IMG/VR virus record: IMGVR_UViG_3300033997_000310
Span: 50,802 to 114,801 of that record
Length of the DNA stretch: 64,000 nucleotides
Strand: one strand, 5' to 3'
Origin: a virus
In this document: positions 7,375-39,154 of the stretch, one piece after another
Numbering within the stretch: position 1 is the first letter of the stretch
Layout of the letters: every line of letters begins with the position of its first letter
The notes under the pieces: model-generated
What the model saw: the letters and a program-made list of their open reading frames with translations, nothing else
What the model was told of the DNA's origin: nothing
The model's database searches: none
Translations under genes and position numbers: made by a program

Positions 7375-10300
7375 CACCACGCAAGCGGCACGCGGGGCCA
7401 GTGACCTTGAGCGCTTCGAGGAAAGCGCCGGGAAAGCCGGTCGGGCGGTCGACAAGATGGAGAACGAGGTCAACTCCATTCTGGGTCCGCTGCGTGCGCT
7501 CCAGGGCTTGTTGGCTGGTGTCACTGCGGCGCTTGGTATCCAGAAGCTGATCGAATATGCCGACACATGGAACCTGCTGAACGCGCGCATCAAGATCGTC
7601 AGCCGCTCAACGCAGGAGTTTGTCACGGCGCAGCGAGAACTGTTCCGCATCTCGCAGGAAACCAGAACGGCACTGGAGGGCACGGTCTCGCTCTATACCC
7701 GCGTCGCTGGCGTTGCGCAGCGAGCAGGTCGGTCGCAGGTCGAGGTGCTGAAGTTCACCGAGACCGTCAGCAAGGGACTCCAGGTCTCTGGCGCATCTGC
7801 GGCCGAGGCGCAGAACACCATTATCCAGCTTGGCCAAGCGCTGGCCAGCGGTGCCCTGCGTGGCGACGAGTTCAACTCCCTGCGTGAGAATGCGGGAGCC
7901 CTGGTGCAGGTGCTGGCTGATAACATCAAGGGCGTCGACGGCAACATGGGAAAGCTCCGTGAGTTCGCGGAGCAGGGCAAGCTGACGTTCGACGTGATTT
8001 TCAATGCGGCGCTGGGTGCTTCGGCCAAGATCAATGCCGACTATGCACAGCTTCCGGTAACTGTTGGCGCGGCTTTTACGGTTCTAGAAAACGCCTTCAT
8101 GAAGTTCGTCGGTGAGGTGGACAAGTCCACCGGCATCACGGCGGCTCTGTCGTCTGGACTGGTCTCGCTGTCAAAGAACCTGGATCTTGTTGCCGCATCC
8201 CTGGCAGGCTTGGCCGCCGCCGGCATCGTCGCCAGCCTGGGCACAATTATCGGCCTTATCCGGACAGCCACCACGGCCACCATCGCATGGACGGCGGCGC
8301 TGGCAACGAATCCAATTGGACTGCTGGCCGTGGCAATCTCAAGTGCTGTCGCGGCGCTGGTCTACTATCGAAATGAACTGGTGAATATCGGCAACCAGAC
8401 CGTTCGTGTCGGCAATGTGATCTCTGCCGTGTGGACGACCATTGCCGCCCCGATCGAGGCCGCTGTGAAGTGGCTGGCCGCAATGGTGCGCACACTTGCA
8501 GCGCTTGCGGCTTTCGACTTCAGCTCTGTTGGTCGCGGCCTTGGCGATGGCGCACAGGCCATGAAGGGCGCGGTATCAGATATCGAAAAGGCGTGGTCCC
8601 GTATGAACCTGCGGCCTGGACGCGATATGGGCCGCGACTCGGTCAACAACACGCCGACACCGGTCGCTGGTGTCGATCCTGCGGAGGTGAATGACAAAGA
8701 GCAACTGGTCAACGCCATCGAACGCATCATCGGCGCCTACGACAGGGAAAAGAAGATTGCCTTCGAGGTGGCCGACGCGCGCAAGCATCTGAACGCGGCG
8801 ATGGAGGCCGGTTCCCAGGCACTGAAGGACCAGATCGCGGCGGCCGGGGGCGTCGATTCCATCCTGAAGCGGTACGAGGCGCAGCTTCGTAGCAACACGA
8901 CTGCGGTCAAGCAGGCCGACGCCGTCACGCAGGCATTCAAGGACCAGATCGATGACGTCAATCGTTTCTTGGCGGATCAGGCCGGCGGACTGACCGAAGC
9001 CGAGAAGGCCTACCAGCCCTATGCGGCTCAGATCGAGAAGCTGAACGACCTGCTGGCCAAGAAGGGCGTCACCGACCAACAGCGCATCGCTATCCAGGAG
9101 ACGATCAACAAGCTGGAGTTGGCCGGCCGCGTCGCCATGGAAGATGCCAACGCCAAACTCCAGCGCCAGATCGATCTGCGCACCCTGGAACTGAATAGAC
9201 TGAAAGAGCGCAACGGGCTCATGTCTCGCGTCGTCGCCGGCGGCTCCGATGGACTGAAGGCTGGCGTGGAGTTGGAGGCTAAGGTCACGCAGTGGCAGAT
9301 CGACGATGCCATCCGTGGCCTCACCGATAGCCTGCGTGATGCGCGTGGGCAGATCAGCGAGACCAATCAGGCCATCATCGACGCCACCGAGGCGGAGATG
9401 AAGCGCAATGCCGTCCTTGAGCGGCAGGCGCAGATCAACGGCCTTGCACAGACCGCAGCCGACAGCCTGGGCAACATCTTCACGCGCATCCAGTCCGGCG
9501 ATTGGGGTAGCGTGGCCGAGGGCGTCGGCAAGTTCGTCACCGATTTCCAAACGCTTGAGAAGAAGACGGGCTCAACTGCCGGTGCCTTTAAGGAGTTGGG
9601 CGAAAACCTGCTGAAGTCGGCAGAGGCTGGCAACGCGCTGGGCAACATGCTGGGCAGCCTGTTCGGCCGGTCGGCGGCGGAGCAGAAGAACGCGCAGAAG
9701 GGCGGCGCCATCGGCGGCACCGTTGGCAGCTTCTTCGGAATGAAGGGGGCCGGCGCCTTCGTTGGCAACATCATCGGCGGCTTCTTCGGTACTTCCAAGG
9801 CCATGGAGCGCGCTGCGCAGAAGGCTGCCGACGTCGCCAAGCTCAACGAACAGATCGACAGCTTCCTCCAGGCCGCGTCGTCGGCCACCGATATGCAGAA
9901 GCAGCTCACGGCTTTGGATGCTCAATTCCAGTCGTTGCGGCGCGAAGCCGAGCGCTTGAAGCAGCCGGTCGACCTGCTGACGAAGGCCTATGAGGCCCAG
10001 CGCAAGAAAATCCTGGACGCCTTCGGCTCCGGCATCGACGAGCTGATCGACAAGTATTCCGGCCGGCAGGCGATGGCTGACCTGCGGGCCCTGCTGAAAG
10101 TGCAGGAGCAGCGCATCAAGGACGCGTTGGTGGCGGAATACGATCTGGGCAAGGTGCGTCGGGCCAATGCGCTGGAACTGGCTGATTTCTTCTCCAACCT
10201 GACCGAGGATCAGCTTGCCGCTTTCGGCGATCTGGTCTCCGCGCTCGACCGGGTGAAGGCCCGCATCCGCGACCTGACCACCACCATCACGGATCAACTC

Positions 10301-12385
10301 GACAAGCAGATCGACACCGCCAAGGAACTGGCGTCGGCCGCGCGCCAACAGGCGTCCGCCTTCCGTCAGCTTGCCGTGTCCCTGCGCGAACAGATCCTGG
10401 CCAACAAGACTGGTGACTTGTCGCCTCTGTCTCCGGGCGACCGCTTCTCTGCGCTCAACACCGAATTCCAGCGCCTGTTCGGCCTGGCAATGGGCGGTGA
10501 TCAGGACGCGGCCGGCAAGCTCGGTGACGCCGGGACAAGCCTTTTGGAGGCTGCCAAGGCAATGTATGCGACCGGGCCCGAGTATGTCGCCATCTTCAAC
10601 CAAGTGCAGGAAGCGCTGGCCAAGACGGCTGAGGTGGCCGATGTGCGCGCCACGGCCCTGGAGCGCATTGCCGATCTGGCGGATACGCAGGTGGTGATTC
10701 TTGAGGCCATCCGTGATGTCCTTAATACCGACCTTGGGCAGCCAACGGCCGACGCCATCGCCGCGGCGATCGCCGACGGCGTGCTGACGGTAGGGGAAAT
10801 CCAGGGTATCAACACCAAGCTGGACGAGCTTGGCCTGAAATTTGCTAACGTGACCGGCCCGGCCGCCGACGCGGTCAAGTCCGCGATCGAGACCCTGCGG
10901 CAGCAGTTGGCGCCCGGCGTGCTCACCGATGCGCAGAAGGCGGCTCTCACGACAGGTCAGCAGGCTATCGCCGACGCGCTGAACGGGTTCAAGGCCCAGC
11001 AGATCGACGAATACCGCAAGGCACTCATTGCAGCCGGCGACGCCATCGGGAAGATGCAGAACTTCCTCCTTGATCCGAACGGCAAGATCCCGGCTGCAAT
11101 CGAGGCCGCGTTCAAAGGCGCAGATATTCAAGCATCGCTGGCTACCGGCATCGAAACCCTGTTCAACGACGCCCTGGGCGATGCCTGGGAGGCGACGCCC
11201 CTCGTTGTTCGCGCCGATCAGACCTTGGCCCAGGCCGTTGGCCAGTGGACGGCGGAAAACCTGTCGACCCGCATCACCAGCCAGTTCGGGGAGGCCATCG
11301 CCAACTGGGCGACGGGTAGCGATCCGCGCACCCTGGTGCAGCGCGTGGACGAGGTATTCTCGCAGGCTATTGGTGACGAGACCGGAAATTGGCAGGGCAC
11401 GCTGAAGTCCCTGCTGGATCAACAGTCTCCGCTCGTGCTGAACCTTCAGGCGCTGACCGCACAAATTCCGCTGTTGATCGATGCCCTGAAGAATCAGGCC
11501 GCGAACGACAATGCTTCCGGCGCCTATGACGCTGCGATGCAGGCGTTCGTCAACCCGATCAAGAACGCGGCCGTCGGGGCGGTGAACAGCATCGCCAGCG
11601 TGCCGATCGACAAGCCTTCAGGCGGCAAGAACAACCGCACGGATCTGAGCGTCAATATCGCTTCCGGGCTCCAGCAGAATATCGGCGGGAACGCACAGAA
11701 CGAGGGCAGCCGCCAGCGCGCAGCAGAGCTTGGCAGCATCATGCAGACGCTTGGCCAGCAACTCGAGATGCTGACTGGCGGCACGCTGGGGACGATCCAG
11801 GTTCGCGCGGGCGAGGACACGTCCGGCTATCGCGTCGGATCGATCGACCGCATGGACGCCTATGACGGCAACGCCCATGCCCAGATCATCTCGGGGTTCA
11901 TCAACGATGCGATCAAGTCGCTGTCGGGCGGCAACGTCGAGGCGATCAAGATCCTTCAGGGCACGGACTTTACCGACATCACCGCCGGCTTCACGAACGC
12001 GGCTGCTGAAATCTACAAGCTTTTGAATCCACCAGCTTTTGCCGCTGGCGGTATGCATGCTGGCGGACTGCGTTTGGTCGGTGAAAATGGGCCCGAGTTG
12101 GAAGTCACTGGCCCTGCCCGTTATTTCAGTGCGTCGCAAACGGCATCGATGATTGATGGAGCATATGGCGCCGTAGCCGGCCGCAGCCGTGGGCAGGCGG
12201 TTACCGATCCGGCCCTGCTGTCCGAGCTGCGGGCCCTGCGCGCAAGCAACGAGGCCATGGCGGCGGAACTGTCCGCCTACCGGAAGGAGCAGGCGGAGCG
12301 AGACGGCCGGATCATCCGGAGCAACGAGGCAATGGCGGCGGACAGCAAGCGCCAAGCAGGCCAGGCAGGGGAGCGTCGCCGCTGA
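7337..12385 (+). CDS. Tail tape measure protein (~1680 aa)
   Basis: Tape-measure N-terminal motif QLGQALASGALRGDEFNS; long Ala-rich helical body; C-terminal FAAGGMHAGGLRLVGENGPELE. Confidence 0.95.
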   Translation: MTTDIATLGIKVDTTQAARGASDLERFEESAGKAGRAVDKMENEVNSILGPLRALQGLLAGVTAALGIQKLIEYADTWNLLNARIKIVSRSTQEFVTAQRELFRISQETRTALEGTVSLYTRVAGVAQRAGRSQVEVLKFTETVSKGLQVSGASAAEAQNTIIQLGQALASGALRGDEFNSLRENAGALVQVLADNIKGVDGNMGKLREFAEQGKLTFDVIFNAALGASAKINADYAQLPVTVGAAFTVLENAFMKFVGEVDKSTGITAALSSGLVSLSKNLDLVAASLAGLAAAGIVASLGTIIGLIRTATTATIAWTAALATNPIGLLAVAISSAVAALVYYRNELVNIGNQTVRVGNVISAVWTTIAAPIEAAVKWLAAMVRTLAALAAFDFSSVGRGLGDGAQAMKGAVSDIEKAWSRMNLRPGRDMGRDSVNNTPTPVAGVDPAEVNDKEQLVNAIERIIGAYDREKKIAFEVADARKHLNAAMEAGSQALKDQIAAAGGVDSILKRYEAQLRSNTTAVKQADAVTQAFKDQIDDVNRFLADQAGGLTEAEKAYQPYAAQIEKLNDLLAKKGVTDQQRIAIQETINKLELAGRVAMEDANAKLQRQIDLRTLELNRLKERNGLMSRVVAGGSDGLKAGVELEAKVTQWQIDDAIRGLTDSLRDARGQISETNQAIIDATEAEMKRNAVLERQAQINGLAQTAADSLGNIFTRIQSGDWGSVAEGVGKFVTDFQTLEKKTGSTAGAFKELGENLLKSAEAGNALGNMLGSLFGRSAAEQKNAQKGGAIGGTVGSFFGMKGAGAFVGNIIGGFFGTSKAMERAAQKAADVAKLNEQIDSFLQAASSATDMQKQLTALDAQFQSLRREAERLKQPVDLLTKAYEAQRKKILDAFGSGIDELIDKYSGRQAMADLRALLKVQEQRIKDALVAEYDLGKVRRANALELADFFSNLTEDQLAAFGDLVSALDRVKARIRDLTTTITDQLDKQIDTAKELASAARQQASAFRQLAVSLREQILANKTGDLSPLSPGDRFSALNTEFQRLFGLAMGGDQDAAGKLGDAGTSLLEAAKAMYATGPEYVAIFNQVQEALAKTAEVADVRATALERIADLADTQVVILEAIRDVLNTDLGQPTADAIAAAIADGVLTVGEIQGINTKLDELGLKFANVTGPAADAVKSAIETLRQQLAPGVLTDAQKAALTTGQQAIADALNGFKAQQIDEYRKALIAAGDAIGKMQNFLLDPNGKIPAAIEAAFKGADIQASLATGIETLFNDALGDAWEATPLVVRADQTLAQAVGQWTAENLSTRITSQFGEAIANWATGSDPRTLVQRVDEVFSQAIGDETGNWQGTLKSLLDQQSPLVLNLQALTAQIPLLIDALKNQAANDNASGAYDAAMQAFVNPIKNAAVGAVNSIASVPIDKPSGGKNNRTDLSVNIASGLQQNIGGNAQNEGSRQRAAELGSIMQTLGQQLEMLTGGTLGTIQVRAGEDTSGYRVGSIDRMDAYDGNAHAQIISGFINDAIKSLSGGNVEAIKILQGTDFTDITAGFTNAAAEIYKLLNPPAFAAGGMHAGGLRLVGENGPELEVTGPARYFSASQTASMIDGAYGAVAGRSRGQAVTDPALLSELRALRASNEAMAAELSAYRKEQAERDGRIIRSNEAMAADSKRQAGQAGERRR

Positions 12386-20467: not shown

Positions 20468-20634
20468 TTTTTCGTCCACGCTCATTTGCGTGGTGAGTGA
20501 ATCCAGCCCCAGGTAAACGAGATTCTGCCCCTCATTGCCGCTCCCACTAAGTGCGGGGTGAGTGATCCAGCGCGATGCCATTCATATAAGGCTGTCATGT
20601 TGTCACCCCCGCCCAAATGCGGGGTATGTGAACC
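20468..20634 (-). CRISPR. Mini-array: 3 divergent ~36-nt repeats and 2 ~30-nt spacers
   Basis: Repeats start at about 20468, 20534 and 20599 (period 65-66). The 20599 copy GTTGTCACCCCCGCCCAAATGCGGGGTATGTGAACC closely matches the main-array repeat at 23876. Confidence 0.75.
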
Positions 20635-20692: not shown

Positions 20693-22906
20693 TCACGCTG
20701 CGACCTCCTGTTTCACCGCATACGGGAACACTTCCGCGTAACCGTACACATCATCAAACCCCGACCGGAACCGTTCCGGGATGCAGTCGGAGAAGCCGGC
20801 GAACGAGGCGTCGTTGTAAGCCCGCGCCCGGCGGTTGCTGGTGATGCTCTGCGGCAGCGGGAACCGTGGATCGAGCATCCAAACCCGCACGTCGTCGCTG
20901 GCCTGACGGATGCCGCGACCGAAGCCCTGTTTCAGCCGCTTCTTGGCCCCCAGGGCGACGCTGGAGAAGTCGATAGCCCGGATGGCATCTTCCGACAGCC
21001 CGCGCGCACGCAGGGCCGCCGCACGGGCCCCAGAGCGGGCATTATCGAGCGATCCGAACGGCAGTCGGGTGACGACGAGGTTCTGCACCATGCCGGGCAG
21101 ATCGACGCCTTCCCATGCCGCCGGGGAAATCAGCAGAGCGTTCGGCGTTTCGCGGTACTTGGCCAGCGCATCAACCAGCTTCGTGCCGCGCACATGCTCA
21201 ATCACGTCAACCCCAGCCGCACGGACGCAAGCGGCAATTGCCTGCGTGTCGACATAGCTCGTGGTCAGCACCAGCGTGCGCCCGCCGGCGGCATGGGCCG
21301 CAACGACGCCATCAGCGGCATATTCAACCCAGGCCGGGTTGGTGGTGACGATTTCCTCATCGTCGACCTTGGCCGTGGGGCGGGGAGCGGCGCGATCCGC
21401 CAAATGCAGGGAAGACCAGCGCCCGAACACTTCCGGCGCGAACCGCTGGCACCGATCCGGCGACACGTTCTTGACCTTCTCCGGGTTGGACCGGTCGTAA
21501 TAGATGCCGACCTCGCTGCGGAACGACCGGAAGTCGGCATCGCTTTCCGACTGGCTCCGAGCCGGCGCGTCCAGGGTGGCGCTGGTGAAGACCAGCGAAC
21601 GCAGGAACGGCGCATATTCCGTGCCGTCCGACGACTTGCCGGGCTTGAACAGGCGCGCGGCCAGCCGGCCAGGATAGACCGGCACGATGCTGAGGGACGG
21701 ATAGGAGCGTACCGGAGACCAGCGCAGCAGCGGGCACTGAATGGCCGAATGCTCGCCTTCCTTGGCGTCCAGCGTGCCGTTGGCGAAGCTGCGCAGTTCC
21801 TCCACCATGTCACGCATCTCCGCGACGACACCGGCATCAACGCCGGCTTTCTTGCCGCGCGTGGAAGCCTCCAGCAGCAGACCGCTGAGATAGACCGCGT
21901 GCCCCACGGCTTCCTTGCGCAGATCGGCCATGTTCGGGGCCGAAAGCAGGACATGCCCGCCACGATCATCGCGCGTGAAGCCGGGGCGATGCTCCATCTT
22001 CTCGAAGGTGGCCCCCATCCATGCTTCCCAATCCTTCAGGGCGGCGAACGCCTTGATGGTGTCGATACCGGCGTCACTGACGGCGGTGAGCGTGCGGCGC
22101 ATCATCGGGGCAGAGACGCGAGTGTCAAAAACCGATTCGGCGGCGTGCGGGATGCGGTCGGCCTCATCGATCACGCCGATATCGAATCCGTCGCTTTCAC
22201 CGGCCAGCAGCCGGTTCCACCGGATGGCGGAAATCATGGTCAGGGCATGGTTGGTGACGACGATATCGGCGGTATGACTGCCAACAACGTGGTCCTTGTA
22301 CCGCTGCTGGTCATCGTCGCTGCACACGGCGGTGAGGCACACGTCTGCCTCGGAAATGCCGCACGGCAGCGGGCCGAACGTCTCTTTCCACTCCGCGATA
22401 TCGCCGCTGGCCTCTGCGAAGCTGCGCAGCGCCTCCAGGCTGATCCGGGCATCGTCCGTGAGCGCGCCATCGGTGGCCATGGCAGCCATCAGTGCAACGA
22501 TGCGGGACGGTGACAGGAAGTTGCGGCGACCCTTGCGCACGGCGGCGCTGATCTGGATTCCGGTGATGGCCTTGGCGACCGCGATGGCGACCGGCACGTC
22601 CTTGCCCATCAACTGCGTCTGCAGATTGATGGTGTATGTGCTGACCAAGCCGCGCTGCCCGGTGCGGGCGCAATGCACGGCCATGGGAACCAGATAGCCC
22701 AGCGACTTGCCGACGCCGGTTTCGGCTTCATAGAGCGACACTTCGCCGATGCCGGGTGTGGCGTTCTCGAAGCTGTTGGCAACCGCCTTGGCGTAGGCGA
22801 TTTGCTGGGGATTGGGGCGATACGCCTTGCCCAGCTTCTTCATTTCGGCATCAACGGGACCGCCAGCGGCGAACGCGGCGGCGACGATTTCAGAGAGAGT
22901 CGGCAT
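20693..22906 (-). CDS. csf4: CRISPR-associated DinG helicase (type IV-A)
   Basis: EAETGVGKS, IDEAD, SAT, EGVD and QGFGRGIR SF2 motifs; flanked by arrays; next to csf2. Confidence 0.9.
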   Translation of the reverse strand: MPTLSEIVAAAFAAGGPVDAEMKKLGKAYRPNPQQIAYAKAVANSFENATPGIGEVSLYEAETGVGKSLGYLVPMAVHCARTGQRGLVSTYTINLQTQLMGKDVPVAIAVAKAITGIQISAAVRKGRRNFLSPSRIVALMAAMATDGALTDDARISLEALRSFAEASGDIAEWKETFGPLPCGISEADVCLTAVCSDDDQQRYKDHVVGSHTADIVVTNHALTMISAIRWNRLLAGESDGFDIGVIDEADRIPHAAESVFDTRVSAPMMRRTLTAVSDAGIDTIKAFAALKDWEAWMGATFEKMEHRPGFTRDDRGGHVLLSAPNMADLRKEAVGHAVYLSGLLLEASTRGKKAGVDAGVVAEMRDMVEELRSFANGTLDAKEGEHSAIQCPLLRWSPVRSYPSLSIVPVYPGRLAARLFKPGKSSDGTEYAPFLRSLVFTSATLDAPARSQSESDADFRSFRSEVGIYYDRSNPEKVKNVSPDRCQRFAPEVFGRWSSLHLADRAAPRPTAKVDDEEIVTTNPAWVEYAADGVVAAHAAGGRTLVLTTSYVDTQAIAACVRAAGVDVIEHVRGTKLVDALAKYRETPNALLISPAAWEGVDLPGMVQNLVVTRLPFGSLDNARSGARAAALRARGLSEDAIRAIDFSSVALGAKKRLKQGFGRGIRQASDDVRVWMLDPRFPLPQSITSNRRARAYNDASFAGFSDCIPERFRSGFDDVYGYAEVFPYAVKQEVAA

Positions 22907-23020
22907 GTTTGAGTTCCTGTTTGCAGATGGTGATGGGAAAGGTACATCATGGCGGGCAATGAGAAAAGTGCATAATTTGACCGGCCCCGGCAGGCGGGGG
23001 GATTTTTGCGTTCATCACTC

Positions 23021-24307
23021 AGTTGACGGACCCGCAGCGGCGGGTGGCGGCATGAACGAGAAGCCGCAGTTGCGCACCTCTTTTTCGTCCCCGCGCTGGC
23101 GGGGAAAGGGGCGTTGCCGAATCCGTCCTTTATCAATTTCCATACCCGCAACTGCGTGGTCGCTTGGTCGGCGGTCGTGACCGCTCCACCACCGAGTTTT
23201 CACCCCCGCGTGTGCGGGGAAGGCCACGGCTGTCTTGCGCGTCGGTCTACGGAGCCATTTTTCATCCCCGCGCGTGCGGAGCAGCATTGGCGCTGGATAT
23301 CATCGCGGACCTGAACCAATTTCCGTCCCCGCACGTGCGGGGGAGGCCTGGACGGCAGAGACCTACCAGCGCCTCGATTGTTTTCGTCCCCGCGCGTGCG
23401 GGGGATACCCCGCCACCTATCGCCGCAATGGCGTGTTCCTGTTTTCGTCCCCGCGCGTGCGGGGGAGGAATGAACATCCAATCAATGTGCAAGCCCTGCC
23501 ACTTTCCGCCCCCGCCCATGCAAGGCTTCCCATTTTATCAAGCAGTCGTCATTGGCCGCTCTTTCCACCCCCGCCATGCAGGGAACCGTCCGCCCGATGT
23601 TGGCTCCATCCATCTGGTTGTCGTCCCAACGAGTGCTGGGAAAGTGATTCTGCCACGGGTTGAAATGGTGGCGTCGATATTTTCACCCCCACTGGATTGC
23701 GGGGTAGGTGAGGCATCGTATCGGTTTCGTCAGACCCGGCCAAGTTTCCGTCCCCACCAGAATGCGGGGCAAGAGAGACGAAGGCTGGCACGTTCAAGGT
23801 GGTGTTCGTGTTTCCGTCCCCACCAGAATGCGGGGTAAGCAAAACGCTGTCCTTGCCGCTGGTACGTCGCCTCACGTTTCCGGCCCCGCCCAAATGCGGG
23901 GTATGTGAACCCTCATTTTTCCGATTTCGTACCCATCAAACGTTTTCGTCCCCGCCCAAATGCGGGGTAAGAGAGACACATGCACAAGGCTGGCCTGATA
24001 ACCGGTTGTTTCCGTCCCCACCTAAATGCGGGGTAAGAGAGACCGGCGCCCGGGTGAAGCGGATGGCCCGCCAGTTGTCGTCCCCACCTAAATGCGGGGT
24101 AAGAGAGACACATCGGGGGGTGAATCCGAACAGCGATCTGTTGTCGTCCCCACCTAAATGCGGGGTAAGAGAGACGCTCGTCATCGCTCAGAAGATCCCG
24201 CTCCAGTTGTCGTCCCCACCTAAATGCGGGGTAAGAGAGACTCCCGCCGACGGCCATCGGGCGCGGTATAGGTTGTCGTCCCCACCTAAATGCGGGGTAA
24301 GAGAGAC
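23021..24307 (-). CRISPR. Main CRISPR array, about 21 repeats of two classes
   Basis: Ten 36-nt repeats start at 23679, 23744, 23810, 23876, 23942, 24008, 24074, 24140, 24206 and 24272; the last four are identical (GTTGTCGTCCCCACCTAAATGCGGGGTAAGAGAGAC). About 11 shorter repeats start at 23021, 23081, 23136, 23196, 23258, 23319, 23380, 23441, 23502, 23561 and 23617 (e.g. GTTTTCGTCCCCGCGCGTGCGGGGGATAC). Confidence 0.95.
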
Positions 24308-24408
24308 TGATCCTAACACAACTCATTGCAATCAAATACGAATTACGCATTCGCATTTGAAAAAAACCATGATGTACTTGTTCAAGAACCGGTGAAAATG
24401 CGCGCTTT
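24308..24408 (-). promoter_or_regulatory. CRISPR leader
   Basis: AT-rich non-coding stretch abutting the most conserved repeats. Confidence 0.7.
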
Positions 24409-25470
24409 TTACGGCGCGCGGAAGTTCAGGCTGGTCACGTCGGTGGCATCCCAGGCCGCCAGCGCGGAAGCGATGATGCCGGTATCCAGCAACTCCAGGC
24501 CACCGAACGGTTCGATCTGGACGCTGCCGACATTTGCGAAGCCGTCACCTTCCCGCACCGTCACCGTCCAGGTGCCGCTGATCACCCCGCAGCCGTGATT
24601 CGCGTGCGCCCCGACAACCGGGTCCAGCGCCAACTCACGCAGCGCGGCCAAGAACAGGCCCAACTCCAGCTTGGTCACGTTCCGCAGAACCATGCGCTGG
24701 TTCAGCACCTTACCCTGCGGGATCACCTCGTAACCGCCCAACACCTGCTTGATGTTGACGCCGGCGGCCTCGACCTGCCCCTTCAGCGCGTCACGCTTGG
24801 CGGACAGTTCCGCGACTTCAGCAGCCGCATCGGCATTGCCCTTGGCGTTCTTCACGGCCTTGCGCAGGGCCGTCTCGATGTTCTTCAGTTCGGCCTTGGC
24901 CTTGCTGTTGCTGGCACCTTCCTCCGACATGGACAGCCACTTGTCGCGCTCGCCATCAGCCAGGGTATTGAGCGTGTCCGGGGTGCGTTCCATGTCATCG
25001 CTGCGGATGCCAGCGATCTTATCCGGTTCGGTCGGCTGTTCCGGCACGGCATGGCTCACCATCAGCTTGCCGGCGGTATGCGCGGCCATGCTGCCGAAAA
25101 GCGAGATCAGCGGGTTCGCGGCACGCAGATTGGCCGCCGCGATGATATCGGCCTTGCTGTCGCTGCCCTTGTCCTTGATGCCGCCGACCACGTTGAAATA
25201 GTGGTCATCCAGGGTGAAGACGGGAGCGCCATCACCCTGCACCGCGCGGCGAACGACGGTGAGCGCGTGCCGACGCAGCTTTCCGCGCAAGCCGGAGCCA
25301 GGGAAATAGACGGTCTCGGCATTGCCCACGGTCATGCGGGGCAGACGCGACGGCGGGTTCTTCTCGCGTTCGGCGCGCTTCTCGGTCTCGGTCTTCGGCG
25401 GGCAGGTGGCCAGAGGCGATTCGGTGGTGATGGTGCCGTTCAGGACGACGGTATAGGTCTGGGTGTTCAT
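24409..25470 (-). CDS. csf2: Type IV CRISPR backbone subunit Cas7
   Basis: Motifs GTITTESPL, FPGSGLRGKLRR, NPLISLFGS, GKLMVSH and VGAHANHGCG. Start moved to ATG 25470 because the longer ORF runs through repeats. Confidence 0.9.
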   Translation of the reverse strand: MNTQTYTVVLNGTITTESPLATCPPKTETEKRAEREKNPPSRLPRMTVGNAETVYFPGSGLRGKLRRHALTVVRRAVQGDGAPVFTLDDHYFNVVGGIKDKGSDSKADIIAAANLRAANPLISLFGSMAAHTAGKLMVSHAVPEQPTEPDKIAGIRSDDMERTPDTLNTLADGERDKWLSMSEEGASNSKAKAELKNIETALRKAVKNAKGNADAAAEVAELSAKRDALKGQVEAAGVNIKQVLGGYEVIPQGKVLNQRMVLRNVTKLELGLFLAALRELALDPVVGAHANHGCGVISGTWTVTVREGDGFANVGSVQIEPFGGLELLDTGIIASALAAWDATDVTSLNFRAP

Positions 25471-25520: not shown

Positions 25521-25858
25521 TTTGTCGGCCCCGCGTGGGCGGGGCATGAGCAGAAACCCACTCGACCTCTGGGCGGTGACTTTTCGCCCCCGCGTGTGCG
25601 GGGCGAGAGTCGGTCGGGATGTGGCCAATCACCTTCTCGTTATCGTACCCGCGCGGGTGCGGGTTTTGGTCTTGACTGTCACTGAACTTCGCAATCTCCA
25701 TCCTCTTGCCGTCCCCGTGCTCGTGCGGGGTGAGGGGTGCGTCGTTCGATTACTCGGATGACAACGAAGTCCTTACCGTCCCCGCGCACGTGCGAGGCAT
25801 CGGCTGTTGTGCTTTCGGATCAAGACCAGCCCTTTCCATCCCCACTCACGCCGGGAAC
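25521..25858 (-). CRISPR. Degenerate array between cas6 and csf2 (6 repeats)
   Basis: Handle plus CCCCGC..GCGGGG hairpin units start at 25521, 25580, 25639, 25705, 25772 and 25832 (periods 59, 59, 66, 67, 60). Confidence 0.75.
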
Positions 25859-26421
25859 AGCCGCAACATCCCCATGCCATAGCTCTTGGCCGGGCCGATG
25901 CCGATCTTCATCGCATCCGTCAGTGCATCGGCATCGGTAACGCGCAACGCGCCGGTGAAGGTGGTGAAATCTAAGCCGTCCTTGCCGATCTTCGCCTCGT
26001 TGCGCATGACATGGCGGAACTCTGTGCGGAGCGCGACTTGCTCGACCACGAAGCCGTGCTTCAGCCCGCGCGCCTTGAGCCAGTCCATCCGGCCCTCATC
26101 GTCCCCACGACGCAGCATCACGCGCTTGCCGCGCTGCCCGCCGTTGCGCTGATCCACGCGGATGCACCGCGTCGGATGCGCCGTCAGCACGAAGCGGTAC
26201 GTGCAGCCTTCGACTGGCAATGCCACGTCGTCGGCGTGCTGGGCAACTGTATCGGGCAGGTTGTCTGAGCGAATCACGATGCCAGGCGCGGCCTCGTCAA
26301 TCGCAAACAGGAAATCCCGCGTCTTGTCGCTGCCTTCACCAAGCATGAAGGCATAGGCCATTTCATGCAGAGCATAGCGGTTGTGGGGCAGGGCGGGCAG
26401 TTGGATGGAGACTTCACGCAT
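25846..26421 (-). CDS. cas6: Cas6e-like crRNA endoribonuclease
   Basis: C-terminal G-loop GIGPAKSYGMGML; YRFVLTAHPT, WL....KHGF and FTGALRVTD motifs. Confidence 0.9.
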   Translation of the reverse strand: MREVSIQLPALPHNRYALHEMAYAFMLGEGSDKTRDFLFAIDEAAPGIVIRSDNLPDTVAQHADDVALPVEGCTYRFVLTAHPTRCIRVDQRNGGQRGKRVMLRRGDDEGRMDWLKARGLKHGFVVEQVALRTEFRHVMRNEAKIGKDGLDFTTFTGALRVTDADALTDAMKIGIGPAKSYGMGMLRLFPA

Positions 26422-26424
26422 TTT

Positions 26425-27114
26425 TCAGCCCTCGTTCTTCTCGCGGTCACCGCACAGCAGCGACAGCATGTTGAAATCATCGCTGCCCACGGCGGGCAGG
26501 CGGTCGATAACGGCGTCCAGCGCCGGGCACTTGACGATCATGGCGTCGATTTCTGCGTCGATCGATTCCGCCTCTGAGTGATTGCGCTTACGGCGCTCCA
26601 GGGCGCGGGCGGCGGCCCGCCATTGCATCGGCGCGATGCCGTCCAGATCGGCATAAAGGCCTGCAACCAGGGCGCGGTTGATGGTTGCGGTCTCGACGCC
26701 GGAAAGGCTGATCACATCGCTGCCGTAATTGATCCGCCAGTTGTGGATCGTGTTCCAGTCCTTGCCATGGATGACGACCATGAACGGGCTGGCCGGCGGC
26801 GACAGGACGATTTCGGCAATCCAGTTGGGAATAGTGCGCCAAGATCCATCATGGATCACAGTGCTGGCCGGCGGCTGGCGGCACGGCTTGATATCGGCCA
26901 TCAGCACGCAGCCGGTCTCAGTGACCAGCGACATGGCCTTGCCGCCACCCAGGCGAACCGCAGAACCGGCATTGGCCGCGTGCGCGTGGTTGCGGGACAG
27001 GGCAACGATGGCCGGATTGCTTTCATTACTCACGGCAGAATGAAGGTACTGGCCAATGCCGCGATACCAGAAATCCAGCGGGTCAAGGTTGATGATGTCC
27101 ATTGCTTGCCTCAT
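26425..27114 (-). CDS. csf1: Type IV large subunit (Csf1/Cas8-like, no zinc finger)
   Basis: Position between csf3 and cas6; LSPPASPFMVV resembles the Csf1 L.PP.PPF motif; no CxxC pairs. Confidence 0.6.
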   Translation of the reverse strand: MRQAMDIINLDPLDFWYRGIGQYLHSAVSNESNPAIVALSRNHAHAANAGSAVRLGGGKAMSLVTETGCVLMADIKPCRQPPASTVIHDGSWRTIPNWIAEIVLSPPASPFMVVIHGKDWNTIHNWRINYGSDVISLSGVETATINRALVAGLYADLDGIAPMQWRAAARALERRKRNHSEAESIDAEIDAMIVKCPALDAVIDRLPAVGSDDFNMLSLLCGDREKNEG

Positions 27115-27797
27115 GCGGCCAGAAAGCGCGGGGAAATCACGGCGTCGCCAACCGGATTAGGCACGGCGCACAGTGCGTAGTCGCCTTGCCAATACGGCGG
27201 CTGAAATCGCTCCGCATTCAGCGCGGCGCGCTGATTGGACAGCTTCCCCCAGATGCTGACGGGGACAGGCCGGGCCGGACTGCCATCAGCCAGGGCCAAG
27301 CCGACGTGGTGGCCAGTCACTTCCCGCACATCAATGCGGGACACCTGACCATATCCGACGGAACGCTTGGTTCCGATGCCAGATGCGTCGGACAGCAAAT
27401 CCTTGACGGCGGCAACGTCTCCGGTTCCGCAGAACCAGACGGCATCGGCATTGATGCTGGTGTATTCCGACAGGCTGTTCTGGTAATCGCCCCGCGCGCT
27501 GTCGATGCGCGGGAGCGCCTTGCGCCCGCCGTTCGGCCGGATCATGTCCGGCGTAATTTCCATGTCGGCACGGATTGAGCCGACGATCATCACGCCGCGC
27601 AATGGAGAATTGCCATCGATGAAAGCCTGCGAACCAGCCCAGACGCCGCTGCTGCGATCCAGCGGGATTTCTGCGTGTGCGCGTTCAACGCTGCCGGTGC
27701 GCTCATAAATCAGCGCCGCAAGCAGTCCATCAAGCAGCAGCCGACGACCCGGAATGACCGGTGTTGCCATGCTGATCTTGATCACAAACGGGGTCAT
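27111..27797 (-). CDS. csf3: Type IV CRISPR Cas5 subunit
   Basis: Motifs LLDGLLAA, IPL, WFCGTGD, GIGTKRSVGYGQV, ARPVP and PPYW. Start uncertain (27797 or 27854). Confidence 0.85.
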   Translation of the reverse strand: MTPFVIKISMATPVIPGRRLLLDGLLAALIYERTGSVERAHAEIPLDRSSGVWAGSQAFIDGNSPLRGVMIVGSIRADMEITPDMIRPNGGRKALPRIDSARGDYQNSLSEYTSINADAVWFCGTGDVAAVKDLLSDASGIGTKRSVGYGQVSRIDVREVTGHHVGLALADGSPARPVPVSIWGKLSNQRAALNAERFQPPYWQGDYALCAVPNPVGDAVISPRFLAA

Positions 27798-27962
27798 CCG
27801 ACCTCCTGTTGTCTGCGTTTCGATGGGCTGATATTGATAAATTCCATTACGCAACGCAAGCAGGAAAATGAGAAAAGTTCATTATATTGCTGCGAGGCAT
27901 GAGATTGGACGTTTTCCAGATTCGCGGTATGATGGCGCGACTCGGGAAGCAATGGGGCCGCC

Positions 27963-37549: not shown

Positions 37550-39154
37550 TCAGAGATGTTCGGCCAGGGCGGCGCGGATGTCGGCCAGCGTCTGATGACG
37601 CTTCATCTGGCCATTCTCGAATACGACCTCCAGCACGCCGGCGTTGGCCTGCTCGCGCGTCTGCCGATCCAGCAGATGGAAGCCGAAGCCGGTCTTCTCG
37701 ACACGGATCAGGCCAGCGGCCGACTTCTTCACGCCACTGTCGGTCTTCGGGTCCTTCTGCAGGACGCGCTCCTCGCCGTTGACGACGCCATAGGTGGCCT
37801 TGATCGCCGTGCCGAAGGTATCGCGGGTGACGTACTGGTAGGTGTAACTGCCGATGCCCAGCACCACGTTCGTGCTGGCAAATCCCTTGGCGGCCAGGCG
37901 CTTCAAGATGCGCTCCGCCCGATCCAGGGTGATGCTGTCGCCGTAGATCAGGCCGACGTGGCTGTCCAACTGCCGGTGACCTGTGCTTGTCTCGGTGCCG
38001 CCGAACACGTCCCACAGGCACTGGATAGCGCCGCGCTGGGCCGGAGTTGGCTCCCATATCCGATGCGTCGAAATGCTGGGCCCGTGCGCGGCACCGGTGT
38101 TGTGGGCCTCGACTTTGTAGAAGTGGCCGTCCTGGTGGAACACATCCACCCCAGCCTGCAGCATGTCCATCAGGCTGACGAACTCGCTGCGATCCGGCAC
38201 GCCGCAGATGATGTCGACCGGGTCGCCGCTATCGGGCCGGAACACCACCTTGCCGTCGCGCGCCAGGATCTCATCCTTTAGCTTGACCGTGAACTCGGTC
38301 ATCACCTTCCAGAAATCCCAGGTGTCGCTGACGATGCTGACGATACCGGACGGGTAGGTGTGGATCAGGCGGCGGAAGGTTTCGACTTCGTCATCATGCC
38401 CGCCCATGCACATGACGCTGTGCTCCGTGGCCGGCACGGACCCGCCGACGAAGGTCTCGGCGCCGCTGTAATATTCCTCCAGGAAGTCGATGGCGGGGAT
38501 GGTATCGGTTCCGGTGAAGCTCAGCAGGTGGGCCGCGCCGCTCGACATGGCGTCGTGAATGCCGCTCATGCCCCGGAAGCTGAAATCGTGGCCCTGCCAC
38601 AGCGCGAAGGCGGGATCACCGCCGGTCTCGACCGCCATGCGATGGAACAGCCGGCGATACTCAAAGGCGGTAGTCGCCGTCGTCATCGGCTTCCACAGTT
38701 CGGCGCTCAGTTGCGTCTCGACATAGTTTGTCAGCCACGCGAAATCTGGGTGTGTGTTCTCGATCGTGAACATGGGCACGCGGATGTCGACGCGACTGCC
38801 TTCCGGCACGGCCTTGATGCGCAGCGGCAGATAGCCCAGGTCATGCAGCGCCGCGATGTGATCCGCGCCGACCGCTCCGGCGCCCAGATAGCCGTCCATG
38901 CGACGCGTGTAACGGGCGACGACCGTATCCCGAGACAAGCCGAAGAACGAGCGGTCCCAGGTGTCGATCAGGAGCCACTGACACACGGCCTGGAGACCGA
39001 AGAACACGACCTTGTGGTCGAAGTCAGACAGCATCTTGGCGTGCGCATCACCGCGGCACGTCCAGTTGCTGTAGACCAGTTGGGTGCCGGGCGGATACTG
39101 CTTGCGATGCCCGGTCTTATAGCCATCGGTGGCGTGGGGTGCGAAGATGTTCAT
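37550..39154 (-). CDS. Nicotinamide phosphoribosyltransferase-like protein (NAMPT/Namat)
   Basis: TDGYKTGH, HDFSFRG, SVPATEHSVM, SIVSDTWD, RPDSGDP, IYGDSIT and KDPKTD motifs. Confidence 0.93.
   Translation of the reverse strand: MNIFAPHATDGYKTGHRKQYPPGTQLVYSNWTCRGDAHAKMLSDFDHKVVFFGLQAVCQWLLIDTWDRSFFGLSRDTVVARYTRRMDGYLGAGAVGADHIAALHDLGYLPLRIKAVPEGSRVDIRVPMFTIENTHPDFAWLTNYVETQLSAELWKPMTTATTAFEYRRLFHRMAVETGGDPAFALWQGHDFSFRGMSGIHDAMSSGAAHLLSFTGTDTIPAIDFLEEYYSGAETFVGGSVPATEHSVMCMGGHDDEVETFRRLIHTYPSGIVSIVSDTWDFWKVMTEFTVKLKDEILARDGKVVFRPDSGDPVDIICGVPDRSEFVSLMDMLQAGVDVFHQDGHFYKVEAHNTGAAHGPSISTHRIWEPTPAQRGAIQCLWDVFGGTETSTGHRQLDSHVGLIYGDSITLDRAERILKRLAAKGFASTNVVLGIGSYTYQYVTRDTFGTAIKATYGVVNGEERVLQKDPKTDSGVKKSAAGLIRVEKTGFGFHLLDRQTREQANAGVLEVVFENGQMKRHQTLADIRAALAEHL

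What the first reader, a model, noticed from the sequence alone, without database searches (positions are those of the whole stretch)
23021..24307. One CRISPR array switches architecture: ~29-nt IV-A-like repeats change to 36-nt type VI-A-like repeats with 30-nt spacers
Seen: leader-distal units have a 55-62 bp period and repeats such as (transcribed strand) GTATCCCCCGCACGCGCGGGGACGAAAAC. From 23679 to the leader the period is 65-66 bp, with 36-nt repeats converging on GTCTCTCTTACCCCGCATTTAGGTGGGGACGACAAC. Both classes keep a CCCC/GGGG stem followed by an 8-nt handle. Known: ~29+32 is the type I-E/IV-A geometry, whereas 36+30 is typical of type II/VI. As recalled from memory, the Leptotrichia wadei Cas13a repeat (GATTTAGACTACCCCAAAAACGAAGGGGACTAAAAC) shares TACCCC...GGGGAC.A.AAC. 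Type IV-A lacks Cas1-Cas2 and borrows them. Inference: this phage locus changed the host adaptation machinery it uses, moving to a class 2-type Cas1-Cas2 while staying cleavable by Cas6. Alternatively it makes crRNAs usable by two effectors.
Basis: partly seen in the sequence, partly recalled or inferred. Interest (0 to 1): 0.92.

Follow-up and report, generated by a model that had tools for sequence, protein, structure and literature searches.

The report
Phage type IV-A array changes geometry
A phage-borne type IV-A CRISPR array, which has no spacer-acquisition genes of its own, changes along its length from the repeat and spacer sizes of type I-E arrays to those of type II-C arrays, so it probably borrowed two different host acquisition machines in turn; the proposed link to Cas13a (type VI-A) does not hold.

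Summary
The array at 24307->23022 (minus strand) has 10 leader-proximal 36-nt repeats, with eight 30-nt spacers and then one of 29 and one of 28 nt. A messy transition of 3 units follows, then 29-nt repeats with 32-33-nt spacers. A second assembly bridges the junction without differences.

The locus is type IV-A (csf3, cas6e-like, csf2, dinG) on a complete 115-kb tailed-phage record that has no cas1 and no cas9.

The old repeat class has the hairpin of bona fide alphaproteobacterial type I-E arrays. The 36+30 class is not VI-A-like. The motif shared with the LwaCas13a repeat is matched at least as well by the old class.

36+30 is not unique to this array. I found it in 3 of 11 other IV-A loci: Bosea sp. 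ANAM02, Sulfuricystis, and one alphaproteobacterial genome. It is also the geometry of all 19 type II-C arrays sampled from Alphaproteobacteria. The Bosea ANAM02 plasmid carries a II-C cas9 with a 36+30 array beside its IV-A locus.

Best reading, at about 45%: acquisition in trans switched from a type I-E integrase to a type II-C integrase, while the Cas6e hairpin and 8-nt handle were kept. The donor is inferred from geometry only.

Earlier notes of this scan concern this genome only. No look-alike was noted on other DNA.

The parts
27111..27854 (-). csf3 (type IV Cas5)
   Evidence: PADLOC Csf3_0_IV, E 2.4e-37
26425..27114 (-). 229-aa ORF between csf3 and cas6; candidate csf1 (large subunit) by position only
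   Evidence: No Pfam, PADLOC or PHROG match. The Methylobacter IV-A locus has a similar ORF at this position.
25846..26421 (-). cas6e-like endoribonuclease
   Evidence: Pfam PF08798, E 9e-26; PADLOC Cas6e
25521..25858 (-). Degenerate mini-array A, about 6 units with 16-nt hairpins; the first unit overlaps the cas6 stop codon
   Evidence: The 430-aa ORF first taken as csf2 runs through it; the true Csf2 is 353 aa.
24409..25470 (-). csf2 (type IV Cas7), 353 aa
   Evidence: PADLOC Csf2_0_IV, E 1e-52; relatives at 70, 62 and 43% identity are all about 355 aa
24308..24408 (-). AT-rich leader, preceded by a csf2 terminator hairpin
   Evidence: Sequence read. Identical repeats abut this end.
23679..24307 (-). 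New class R1-R10: 36-nt repeats; spacers S1-S8 of 30 nt and S9 of 29 nt lie between them, and S10 (28 nt) follows R10
23502..23650 (-). Transition R11-R13: a 34-nt intermediate and two repeats of 28-29 nt, with spacers of 28-30 nt
23196..23469 (-). Old class R14-R18: 29-nt type I-E-like repeats with 32-33-nt spacers
   Evidence: blastn matches to I-E arrays.
23022..23165 (-). Degenerate tail R19-R21
20693..22906 (-). dinG (csf4) helicase
   Evidence: PADLOC Csf4_0_IVA, E 2e-140; Pfam Helicase_C_2
20468..20634 (-). Mini-array C: three repeats of 35-37 nt with spacers of 29-30 nt; its first repeat has the flank and hairpin of main-array R7

Best explanation
This is one genuine composite array of a phage-borne type IV-A CRISPR-Cas system. 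It is transcribed on the minus strand from a leader just downstream of csf2. Every repeat keeps a 6-bp G+C hairpin followed by an 8-nt handle (ACGRMAAC). From this I infer that the Cas6e-like nuclease can cut every unit at the base of the hairpin, and that the Csf2/Csf3 complex can load every crRNA. DinG-dependent silencing would follow, as shown for IV-A3. The locus has no cas1 or cas2, so spacers must come from a host integrase acting in trans, which is established for IV-A3 with type I-E. The leader-distal units have exact I-E geometry (29+32) and the I-E hairpin, so they were made by a Cas1-Cas2e. The leader-proximal units have a fixed 36-nt repeat and a fixed 30-nt spacer. This is the geometry of the type II-C arrays that are common in Alphaproteobacteria. 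They were most likely made by a II-C-type Cas1-Cas2, probably with Cas9, in a later host or in a host that carries both systems. The repeat grew by 5 nt between the old 5' flank and the stem and by 2 nt in the loop, which leaves the parts read by Cas6 and the effector unchanged. Shown: the anatomy, the gene content, the I-E identity of the old class, the II-C geometry of the new class, and its recurrence in other IV-A loci. Inferred: processing, loading, and the identity of the second integrase.
For: The locus is IV-A, and the 114.8-kb record has no cas1 or cas9. The flank and hairpin of the old class are identical to the Bosea sp. RAC05 I-E repeat, which lies next to cas1e and cas2e. They also match I-E arrays of Acetobacter, Paracoccus, Roseomonas and Frigidibacter, all with a period of 61. 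Cas9 is found in 30 of 151 sampled alphaproteobacterial genomes, and all 19 adjacent arrays recovered have 36-nt repeats with a period of 66. 36+30 recurs in IV-A loci of Bosea sp. ANAM02 (32 units detected, handle CCGACAAC), Sulfuricystis, and genome G014. Their Csf2 proteins are only about 28% identical to ours and the tree does not resolve them as a clade. The ANAM02 plasmid also carries a II-C cas9 with its own 36+30 array. The two IV-A plasmids with 61-nt periods that were tested carry cas1 and no cas9. In the E. coli I-E system, an insertion upstream of the first inverted repeat is copied, but rulers of 16 and 8 nt fix the far cut. That predicts 33+33 or 35+33, not a conserved 36 with 30 (PMC5039180). 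There is a precedent: type VI-B arrays use the II-C Cas1 in trans, share 36-bp repeats and a leader-distal GTTGT, and are transcribed away from the leader (PMC8092290). Our R1-R4, the ANAM02 repeat and the Sulfuricystis repeat all read GTTGT at the leader-distal end. A GcrA-domain protein hints at an alphaproteobacterial host.
Against: The link to II-C rests on geometry and one co-residence. Beyond GTTG, our repeat is no more similar to the 19 II-C repeats than chance (6-18 of 36 positions). No host array with this repeat was found. No protospacer was found, so the side of the acquisition motif is unknown. The host is not identified. The transition units (34-nt repeat, 28-29-nt spacers) fit neither integrase. 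The Sulfuricystis plasmid and genome G014 show no cas9 or cas1, and the ANAM02 plasmid has no cas1. IV-A interference needs its own target motif, which in IV-A3 matches the I-E acquisition motif. Compatibility with a II-C motif is only argued here. Repeat variants are out of age order, so part of the pattern may come from recombination.
Confidence: 0.45

Rival explanations
1. The 36+30 units were made by an unrecognised class 1 integrase: an I-E-derived or other Cas1-Cas2 with a shorter spacer ruler, serving a sublineage of IV-A arrays. The match to II-C geometry is a coincidence.
For: The hairpin and handle architecture is class 1 throughout. The Sulfuricystis plasmid and genome G014 have 36+30 IV-A arrays without a detectable cas9. 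There is no sequence similarity to II-C repeats beyond GTTG. The intermediates R11-R13 suggest gradual change.
Against: No class 1 array with 36+30 was seen. The I-E arrays have a period of 61, the I-C-like arrays are about 32+34, and the I-G-like arrays have a period of 72-73. In 401 alphaproteobacterial genomes, no array carries this hairpin-plus-handle pattern.
Confidence: 0.22
2. The junction was made by recombination. A leader plus a block of 36-nt units from another IV-A array was joined to an old, decaying I-E-type array. The array is then a mosaic and not a linear record of acquisitions in this lineage.
For: Repeat variants are out of age order. R7 differs from its neighbour R6 at 5 of 10 flank positions but has the flank and hairpin of mini-array repeat C1. 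R9 is closer to R1 than R7 or R8 are. The locus holds three arrays, and dinG sits between two of them.
Against: The handle and stem are continuous across the junction, and an intermediate form (R11) sits exactly there. This reading does not explain where 36+30 comes from, so it complements the integrase question and does not replace it.
Confidence: 0.15
3. A canonical type I-E Cas1-Cas2e made all units. The repeat simply drifted, with a 5-nt insertion upstream of the first inverted repeat and 2 nt added in the loop.
For: I-E integrases copy insertions upstream of the first inverted repeat, and the 16-nt ruler would give a period of 61+5 = 66, as observed.
Against: That model puts the cut inside the handle, so the invariant AA before the last base would have to come from every spacer. 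With the 8-nt ruler the period would be 68. Spacers are 30 nt and not 32-33. The junction bases TCA do not match the AGA (AGT in Frigidibacter) shared by the 8 I-E and IV-A leaders, and leader similarity is not above chance.
Confidence: 0.08
4. One reading: the new repeats are type VI-A-like, so the crRNAs are made with a VI-A adaptation module or are usable by a host Cas13a as well.
For: The recalled LwaCas13a repeat is correct, is 36 nt long, and shares a TACCCC stem start and the GGGGAC.A.AAC motif.
Against: The shared motif fits the old 29-nt class better (11 of 12 against 10 of 12). Overall identity is 18 of 36. No Rfam repeat family matches. The phage has no gene of Cas13 size.
Confidence: 0.02
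5. Assembly chimera joining two unrelated arrays.
For: Repeats are hard to assemble, and Logan's assembly breaks within the identical repeats R1-R4.
Against: One 95,945-bp Logan contig covers 22900-24042 with no differences, and depth is equal on both sides at 87.7 and 88.7. The handle and stem are continuous across the junction.
Confidence: 0.02

Closest known systems
Type IV-A3 CRISPR-Cas of Klebsiella plasmids, which acquires spacers in trans through host I-E Cas1-Cas2e (Benz et al.; Pinilla-Redondo et al.)
   Same: It has Cas6e-type processing, csf2, csf3 and dinG, and no adaptation genes. Its repeats carry the I-E hairpin with 29+32 geometry, like the old part of this array.
   Different: Csf2 here is at most 34% identical to any plasmid relative. 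The gene order is csf3, an unassigned ORF, cas6, csf2, array, dinG. The element is a tailed phage. The handle is ACGRMAAC and not the I-E-like AACCG end. The newer units are 36+30.
Type IV-A loci with 36+30 arrays found here: Bosea sp. ANAM02 plasmid pANAM02, Sulfuricystis multivorans plasmid pSTJ2, and alphaproteobacterial genome G014
   Same: They have 36-nt repeats with an internal hairpin and an 8-nt handle, 30-nt spacers, and a period of 65-67. The handle ends in ACAAC in Bosea and Sulfuricystis.
   Different: Their repeat sequences, apart from the handle, and their Csf2 proteins (about 28% identity) are unrelated to ours. Their arrays are uniform in geometry, with no I-E-type segment.
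Flavobacterium columnare type VI-B arrays, which use the type II-C Cas1 in trans (Hoikkala et al. 2021)
   Same: An array without its own cas1 or cas2 has the 36-bp repeat and spacer size of a co-resident II-C system. It shares only the leader-distal GTTGT and is transcribed away from the leader.
   Different: That case is class 2 borrowing from class 2, and it was shown by a cas1 deletion. Here a class 1 effector would borrow from class 2, and this is only inferred.
Type II-C CRISPR arrays of Alphaproteobacteria
   Same: They have exactly 36-nt repeats and 30-nt spacers (19 of 19 arrays), and 9 of the 19 repeats start with GTTG.
   Different: They lack a Cas6-type hairpin plus handle, and they have cas9 and a tracrRNA alongside. 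The phage has neither.
Type VI-A (Cas13a) direct repeats
   Same: They are 36 nt long, with a CCCC/GGGG stem and an 8-nt tail ending in AAAC.
   Different: The resemblance is generic and is shared by the old 29-nt class. There is no cas13.

Membership tests
Type IV-A CRISPR-Cas | Csf2 (Cas7), Csf3 (Cas5) and a Cas6 together with a DinG (Csf4) helicase | tested here: met
   PADLOC matches: Csf2 1e-52, Csf3 2e-37, Cas6e 2.5e-24, Csf4_0_IVA 2e-140; Pfam
Type IV-A CRISPR-Cas | No cas1, cas2 or cas3 in the locus | tested here: met
   No Cas1 (PF01867) match anywhere in the complete 114.8-kb record. cas2 and cas3 were not searched by profile, and none was seen among the ORFs scanned.
Type IV-A CRISPR-Cas | Csf1 (Cas8-like large subunit) | tested here: inconclusive
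   The 229-aa ORF at 26425-27114 is in the right place but matches no profile.
Type I-E-type repeat (old class R14-R18) | 29-nt repeat with 32-33-nt spacers and a period of 61 | tested here: met
Type I-E-type repeat (old class R14-R18) | The inverted repeats CCCCGC and GCGGGG that anchor Cas1-Cas2e | tested here: met
   Identical hairpin to the Bosea RAC05 I-E repeat beside cas1e and cas2e. The anchor motifs are defined in PMC5039180.
Type I-E-type repeat (old class R14-R18) | I-E 3' handle ending in AACCG | tested here: not met
   The handle is ACGAAAAC here, against ATGGACC or ATGAACCG in the I-E arrays.
Type II-C CRISPR array (new class R1-R10) | 36-nt repeat with 30-nt spacer | tested here: met
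   R1-R10 are 36 nt and S1-S8 are 30 nt. 19 of 19 II-C arrays have the same geometry.
Type II-C CRISPR array (new class R1-R10) | cas9 and a tracrRNA with an anti-repeat nearby | tested here: not met
   No Cas9 match in the whole phage record. The new class is therefore not a II-C array; it only has II-C geometry.
Type II-C CRISPR array (new class R1-R10) | Repeat sequence related to II-C repeats | tested here: not met
   6-18 of 36 identities to the 19 II-C repeats; only the leader-distal GTTG is shared.
Type VI-A (Cas13a) direct repeat | A cas13a gene with the array | tested here: not met
   The only ORF above 800 aa in the record is the tape measure protein. No Cas13 profile search was run.
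Type VI-A (Cas13a) direct repeat | Sequence similarity specific to VI-A repeats | tested here: not met
   Ungapped identity to the LwaCas13a repeat is 18 of 36. The shared 12-nt 3' motif matches the old class 11 of 12 and the new class 10 of 12 (direct reading; repeat verified). No Rfam match.

The most novel reading that the evidence does not exclude
A class 1 effector system (type IV-A) has remodelled its repeat so that a class 2 (type II-C) Cas1-Cas2 can feed it spacers in trans. This phage array preserves the switch from I-E to II-C donors in one piece. The IV-A arrays with 36+30 geometry in Bosea, Sulfuricystis and other genomes would be the same adaptation, arisen more than once.
Probability: 0.4. 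Interest if true: 0.78.

Novelty: new variant of a known kind. Interest (0 to 1): 0.6.

Why it matters
Type IV systems have no adaptation genes. The only demonstrated source of their spacers is a co-resident type I-E integrase, and a type I-F source has been inferred. If a subset of IV-A arrays is shaped for a type II-C integrase, in-trans adaptation would cross the class 1 / class 2 divide. Repeat geometry would then be a readable marker of which host machinery a mobile CRISPR system exploits. A single array holding both geometries would be a natural record of such a switch. It also gives a ready test substrate: one leader, one Cas6, two repeat classes. The case further shows that the hairpin and handle, which the effector side reads, and the length and ends, which the integrase side reads, can evolve separately. 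If the II-C link fails, what remains is a modest but real curiosity: a minority 36+30 geometry among IV-A arrays, and a composite array in a phage.

Tried and rejected
The contigs of the three close Csf2 relatives (70, 62 and 43% identity) could therefore not be read. This was the biggest loss.
- Both metagenome scans with Csf2 found nothing. A viral-contig scan with Csf2 also found nothing.
- Exact and degenerate searches for the 36-nt repeat gave nothing or single chance hits in IMG/VR and GTDB genomes.
- blastn of the new units against plasmids and phages found no match.
- Rfam found no CRISPR repeat family.
- A pattern search in 401 alphaproteobacterial genomes gave only 4 single chance hits.
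- Protospacers: whole-array blastn against phages and plasmids gave only chance hits, such as a 27-nt match at E = 4 in Ralstonia. Cores of spacers S1, S2 and S6 had no hit in IMG/VR. There is no self-target in the phage. No target was found for the Bosea ANAM02 array either. No PAM could be derived.
- Leader comparison with 8 I-E and IV-A leaders: my eye saw a CAATG..TT..TAGGA resemblance, but 24% of shuffles scored as well, so I rejected it.
- Host identification through phage relatives failed: the only hit was at 29% identity to an EBPR siphovirus. The protein atlas gave only Pseudomonadota.
- No RNA holder was listed among the sequencing runs.
- The Csf2 tree is unresolved.
- The literature search found no description of 36+30 IV-A arrays or of natural arrays that change geometry.
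- Locus L140, from the unpublished genome G043, was not used.

Full report
**What is there.** The window is the second half of a 114,801-bp IMG/VR virus record with direct terminal repeats, rated complete. The record encodes a tape measure protein (PF20155, E 6e-57), a tail tube protein (PF18906), an integrase (PF00589), and a protein with a GcrA domain. It is therefore a tailed, probably temperate phage. GcrA is, to my knowledge, an alphaproteobacterial regulator, so the host may be an alphaproteobacterium.

A type IV-A CRISPR-Cas locus lies on the minus strand:
- csf3 at 27111-27854
- an unassigned 229-aa ORF at 26425-27114
- a cas6e-like gene at 25846-26421
- csf2 at 24409-25470
- dinG at 20693-22906

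The record has no Cas1 and no Cas9 match. Csf2 is 353 aa, not the 430-aa ORF. The extra part of that ORF is a degenerate mini-array at 25521-25858. A third mini-array follows dinG at 20468-20634.

All coordinates below are read on the minus strand from the leader at 24308-24408.
- R1-R10 are 36 nt: a 10-nt flank (GTCTCTCTTA in R1-R6), stem CCCCGC, a 6-nt loop, stem GYGGGG, and an 8-nt handle (ACGACAAC in R1-R4).
- Spacers S1-S8 are exactly 30 nt. S9 is 29 and S10 is 28.
- R11 is a 34-nt intermediate with a 10-nt flank and a 16-nt hairpin.
- R12 and R13 are 28-29 nt, with spacers of 28-30 nt.
- R14-R18 are 29 nt: a 5-nt flank, CCCCGC, a 4-nt loop, GCGGGG, and the handle ACGAAAAC. Their spacers are 32-33 nt.
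- R19-R21 are decayed.

The 6-bp stem pairs in 18 of the 21 main-array repeats and is the predicted fold in all five repeats folded. R11 and mini-array repeat C3 carry compensatory double changes.

A Logan contig of 95,945 bp, from a subsurface metagenome run, covers 22900-24042 with no difference. Depth is the same as on the contig that resumes at 24279. That assembly breaks only inside the four identical repeats. The junction is therefore not a chimera in a second assembly. The run may be the source sample.

First, the shorter spacers (S9-S12) begin before the longer repeats. Second, repeat variants are not in age order. R7 differs from R6 at five of ten flank positions, yet it has exactly the flank and hairpin of mini-array repeat C1. 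R9 is nearer to R1 than R7 or R8 are. Some exchange between arrays has therefore occurred.

**The old class is type I-E-like.** blastn of the array against plasmids matched only the 29-nt part. The hits were arrays with a period of 61. In Bosea sp. RAC05 the hit lies directly after cas1e and cas2e, and its repeat shares the flank and hairpin CTCCCCCGCACGCGCGGGG with ours. Acetobacter, Paracoccus, Roseomonas and Frigidibacter give the same picture. This fits the published rule that type IV repeats resemble those of co-occurring type I systems (PMC7038947). It also fits the demonstration that IV-A3 acquires spacers through host Cas1-Cas2e. Only the handle differs from the I-E handle, and it stays nearly constant through both classes here. 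I infer that the handle is set by the IV-A effector and not by the integrase.

**The new class is not VI-A-like.** The recalled LwaCas13a repeat is correct. However, ungapped identity is 18 of 36. The shared 3' motif GGGGAC.AAAAC matches the old class 11 of 12 and the new class 10 of 12. Nothing converges on VI-A. Rfam gives no repeat family. The phage has no ORF of Cas13 size apart from the tape measure protein.

**What 36+30 is.** Three results bear on this.

1. In a sample of 151 alphaproteobacterial genomes, 30 carry cas9. All 19 arrays recovered next to cas9 have 36-nt repeats and a period of 66.

2. 36+30 is not unique to this phage. I examined eleven other IV-A loci. Eight have periods of 60-61: two I-F-type loci, plus Methylobacter, Bosea RAC05, Acinetobacter, Shewanella, Methylorubrum and Alteromonas. 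Three have periods of 65-67 with 36-nt hairpin repeats: Bosea sp. ANAM02 (32 units detected, handle CCGACAAC), Sulfuricystis multivorans (handle ATTACAAC), and alphaproteobacterial genome G014. Their Csf2 proteins are about 28% identical to ours, and the tree does not resolve them as a clade. The geometry may therefore have arisen more than once.

3. The Bosea ANAM02 plasmid also carries a type II-C cas9 with a 7-unit 36+30 array and no cas1. The two tested IV-A plasmids with a period of 61 carry cas1 and no cas9.

**Mechanistic constraints.** In the E. coli I-E system, the first cut is set by the leader-repeat junction. The second cut is set by rulers of 16 and 8 nt from the two inverted repeats. 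Insertions upstream of the first inverted repeat are copied, and insertions between the two are corrected (PMC5039180). A Cas1-Cas2e could therefore carry the 5-nt flank insertion. However, it predicts a 33-nt segment plus 33, or a 35-nt segment plus 33. The first would require the invariant AA of the handle to come from every spacer. The second gives a period of 68. The observed conserved 36 with 30 fits neither, so a different integrase is needed.

Type VI-B arrays of Flavobacterium use the II-C Cas1 in trans (PMC8092290). They have the same 36-bp repeat length as the II-C arrays and share only a leader-distal GTTGT. [quoted passage not shown] Our R1-R4, the ANAM02 repeat and the Sulfuricystis repeat also read GTTGT at the leader-distal end. 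Transcription away from the leader would place a II-C acquisition motif where a type I or IV effector reads its PAM. This last point is inference.

**Limits.**
- The II-C link rests on geometry and one co-residence.
- Our repeat is no closer to II-C repeats than chance beyond GTTG.
- The leader shows no significant similarity to I-E leaders, and I could not define a II-C leader motif.
- No host array, protospacer or PAM was found.
- The Sulfuricystis plasmid and genome G014 show neither cas9 nor cas1. The Sulfuricystis chromosome was not available, and G014 may be incomplete.
- The transition units fit no model.

**Verdict.** The VI-A label and the dual-effector idea are rejected. I found no description of 36+30 IV-A arrays or of a natural array that changes geometry in the searchable literature. 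I rate this a new variant of a known kind, with interest 0.6.

Noticed in passing
window 25521-25858 (minus strand): A degenerate mini-array lies between cas6 and csf2, and its first unit overlaps the cas6 stop codon. Cas6 could therefore cut the cas operon mRNA upstream of csf2.
   Followed up: partly
window 20468-20634 and 23876-23911: Mini-array repeat C1 has the same 10-nt flank (GGTTCACATA) and the same hairpin as main-array repeat R7, and only the handle differs. This points to exchange between the arrays, or to dinG having been inserted into an older array.
   Followed up: partly
L182:8160-11901 (Bosea sp. ANAM02 plasmid NZ_AP022849.1, 496159-499900): A type II-C cas9 sits with a 7-unit 36+30 array directly downstream and a tracrRNA-like anti-repeat upstream. 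No cas1 was found anywhere on the 692-kb plasmid, so this is a II-C locus without adaptation genes next to a IV-A locus.
   Followed up: partly
L180:10100-10161 and L178:10060-10120: The leaders of the 36+30 IV-A arrays of Bosea ANAM02 and Sulfuricystis share the motif TTTAGTTKGG, ending 3-5 nt before the first repeat. Our leader has only a loose GTTAGG. In Bosea the array starts about 10 nt after the dinG stop codon.
   Followed up: no
L133:6079-6600, 10158-10683 and 11677-11772 (Methylobacter sp. YRD-M1 plasmid): The closest plasmid locus with the same gene order (cas6e, csf2, array, dinG) also has three arrays, each with a different repeat variant. All have a period of 59-62.
   Followed up: partly
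window 22975-23010: A G+C hairpin followed by a T run, reading as an intrinsic terminator on the plus strand, lies between the end of the array and the dinG start. Its role there is unclear.
   Followed up: no
L135:6545-7885 (G000:C1:26544-27884): A phage protein carries a DnaA-type helix-turn-helix domain and a GcrA cell-cycle regulator domain. This hints at an alphaproteobacterial host and possibly at manipulation of the host cell cycle.
   Followed up: no
window 37550-39154 (minus strand): The phage encodes a nicotinamide phosphoribosyltransferase (phrog_448, E 5e-192).
   Followed up: no
window 24044-24278: Logan's assembly of run X1 has no contig across the four identical repeats R1-R4. 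The number of newest units therefore rests on the IMG/VR assembly alone.
   Followed up: partly
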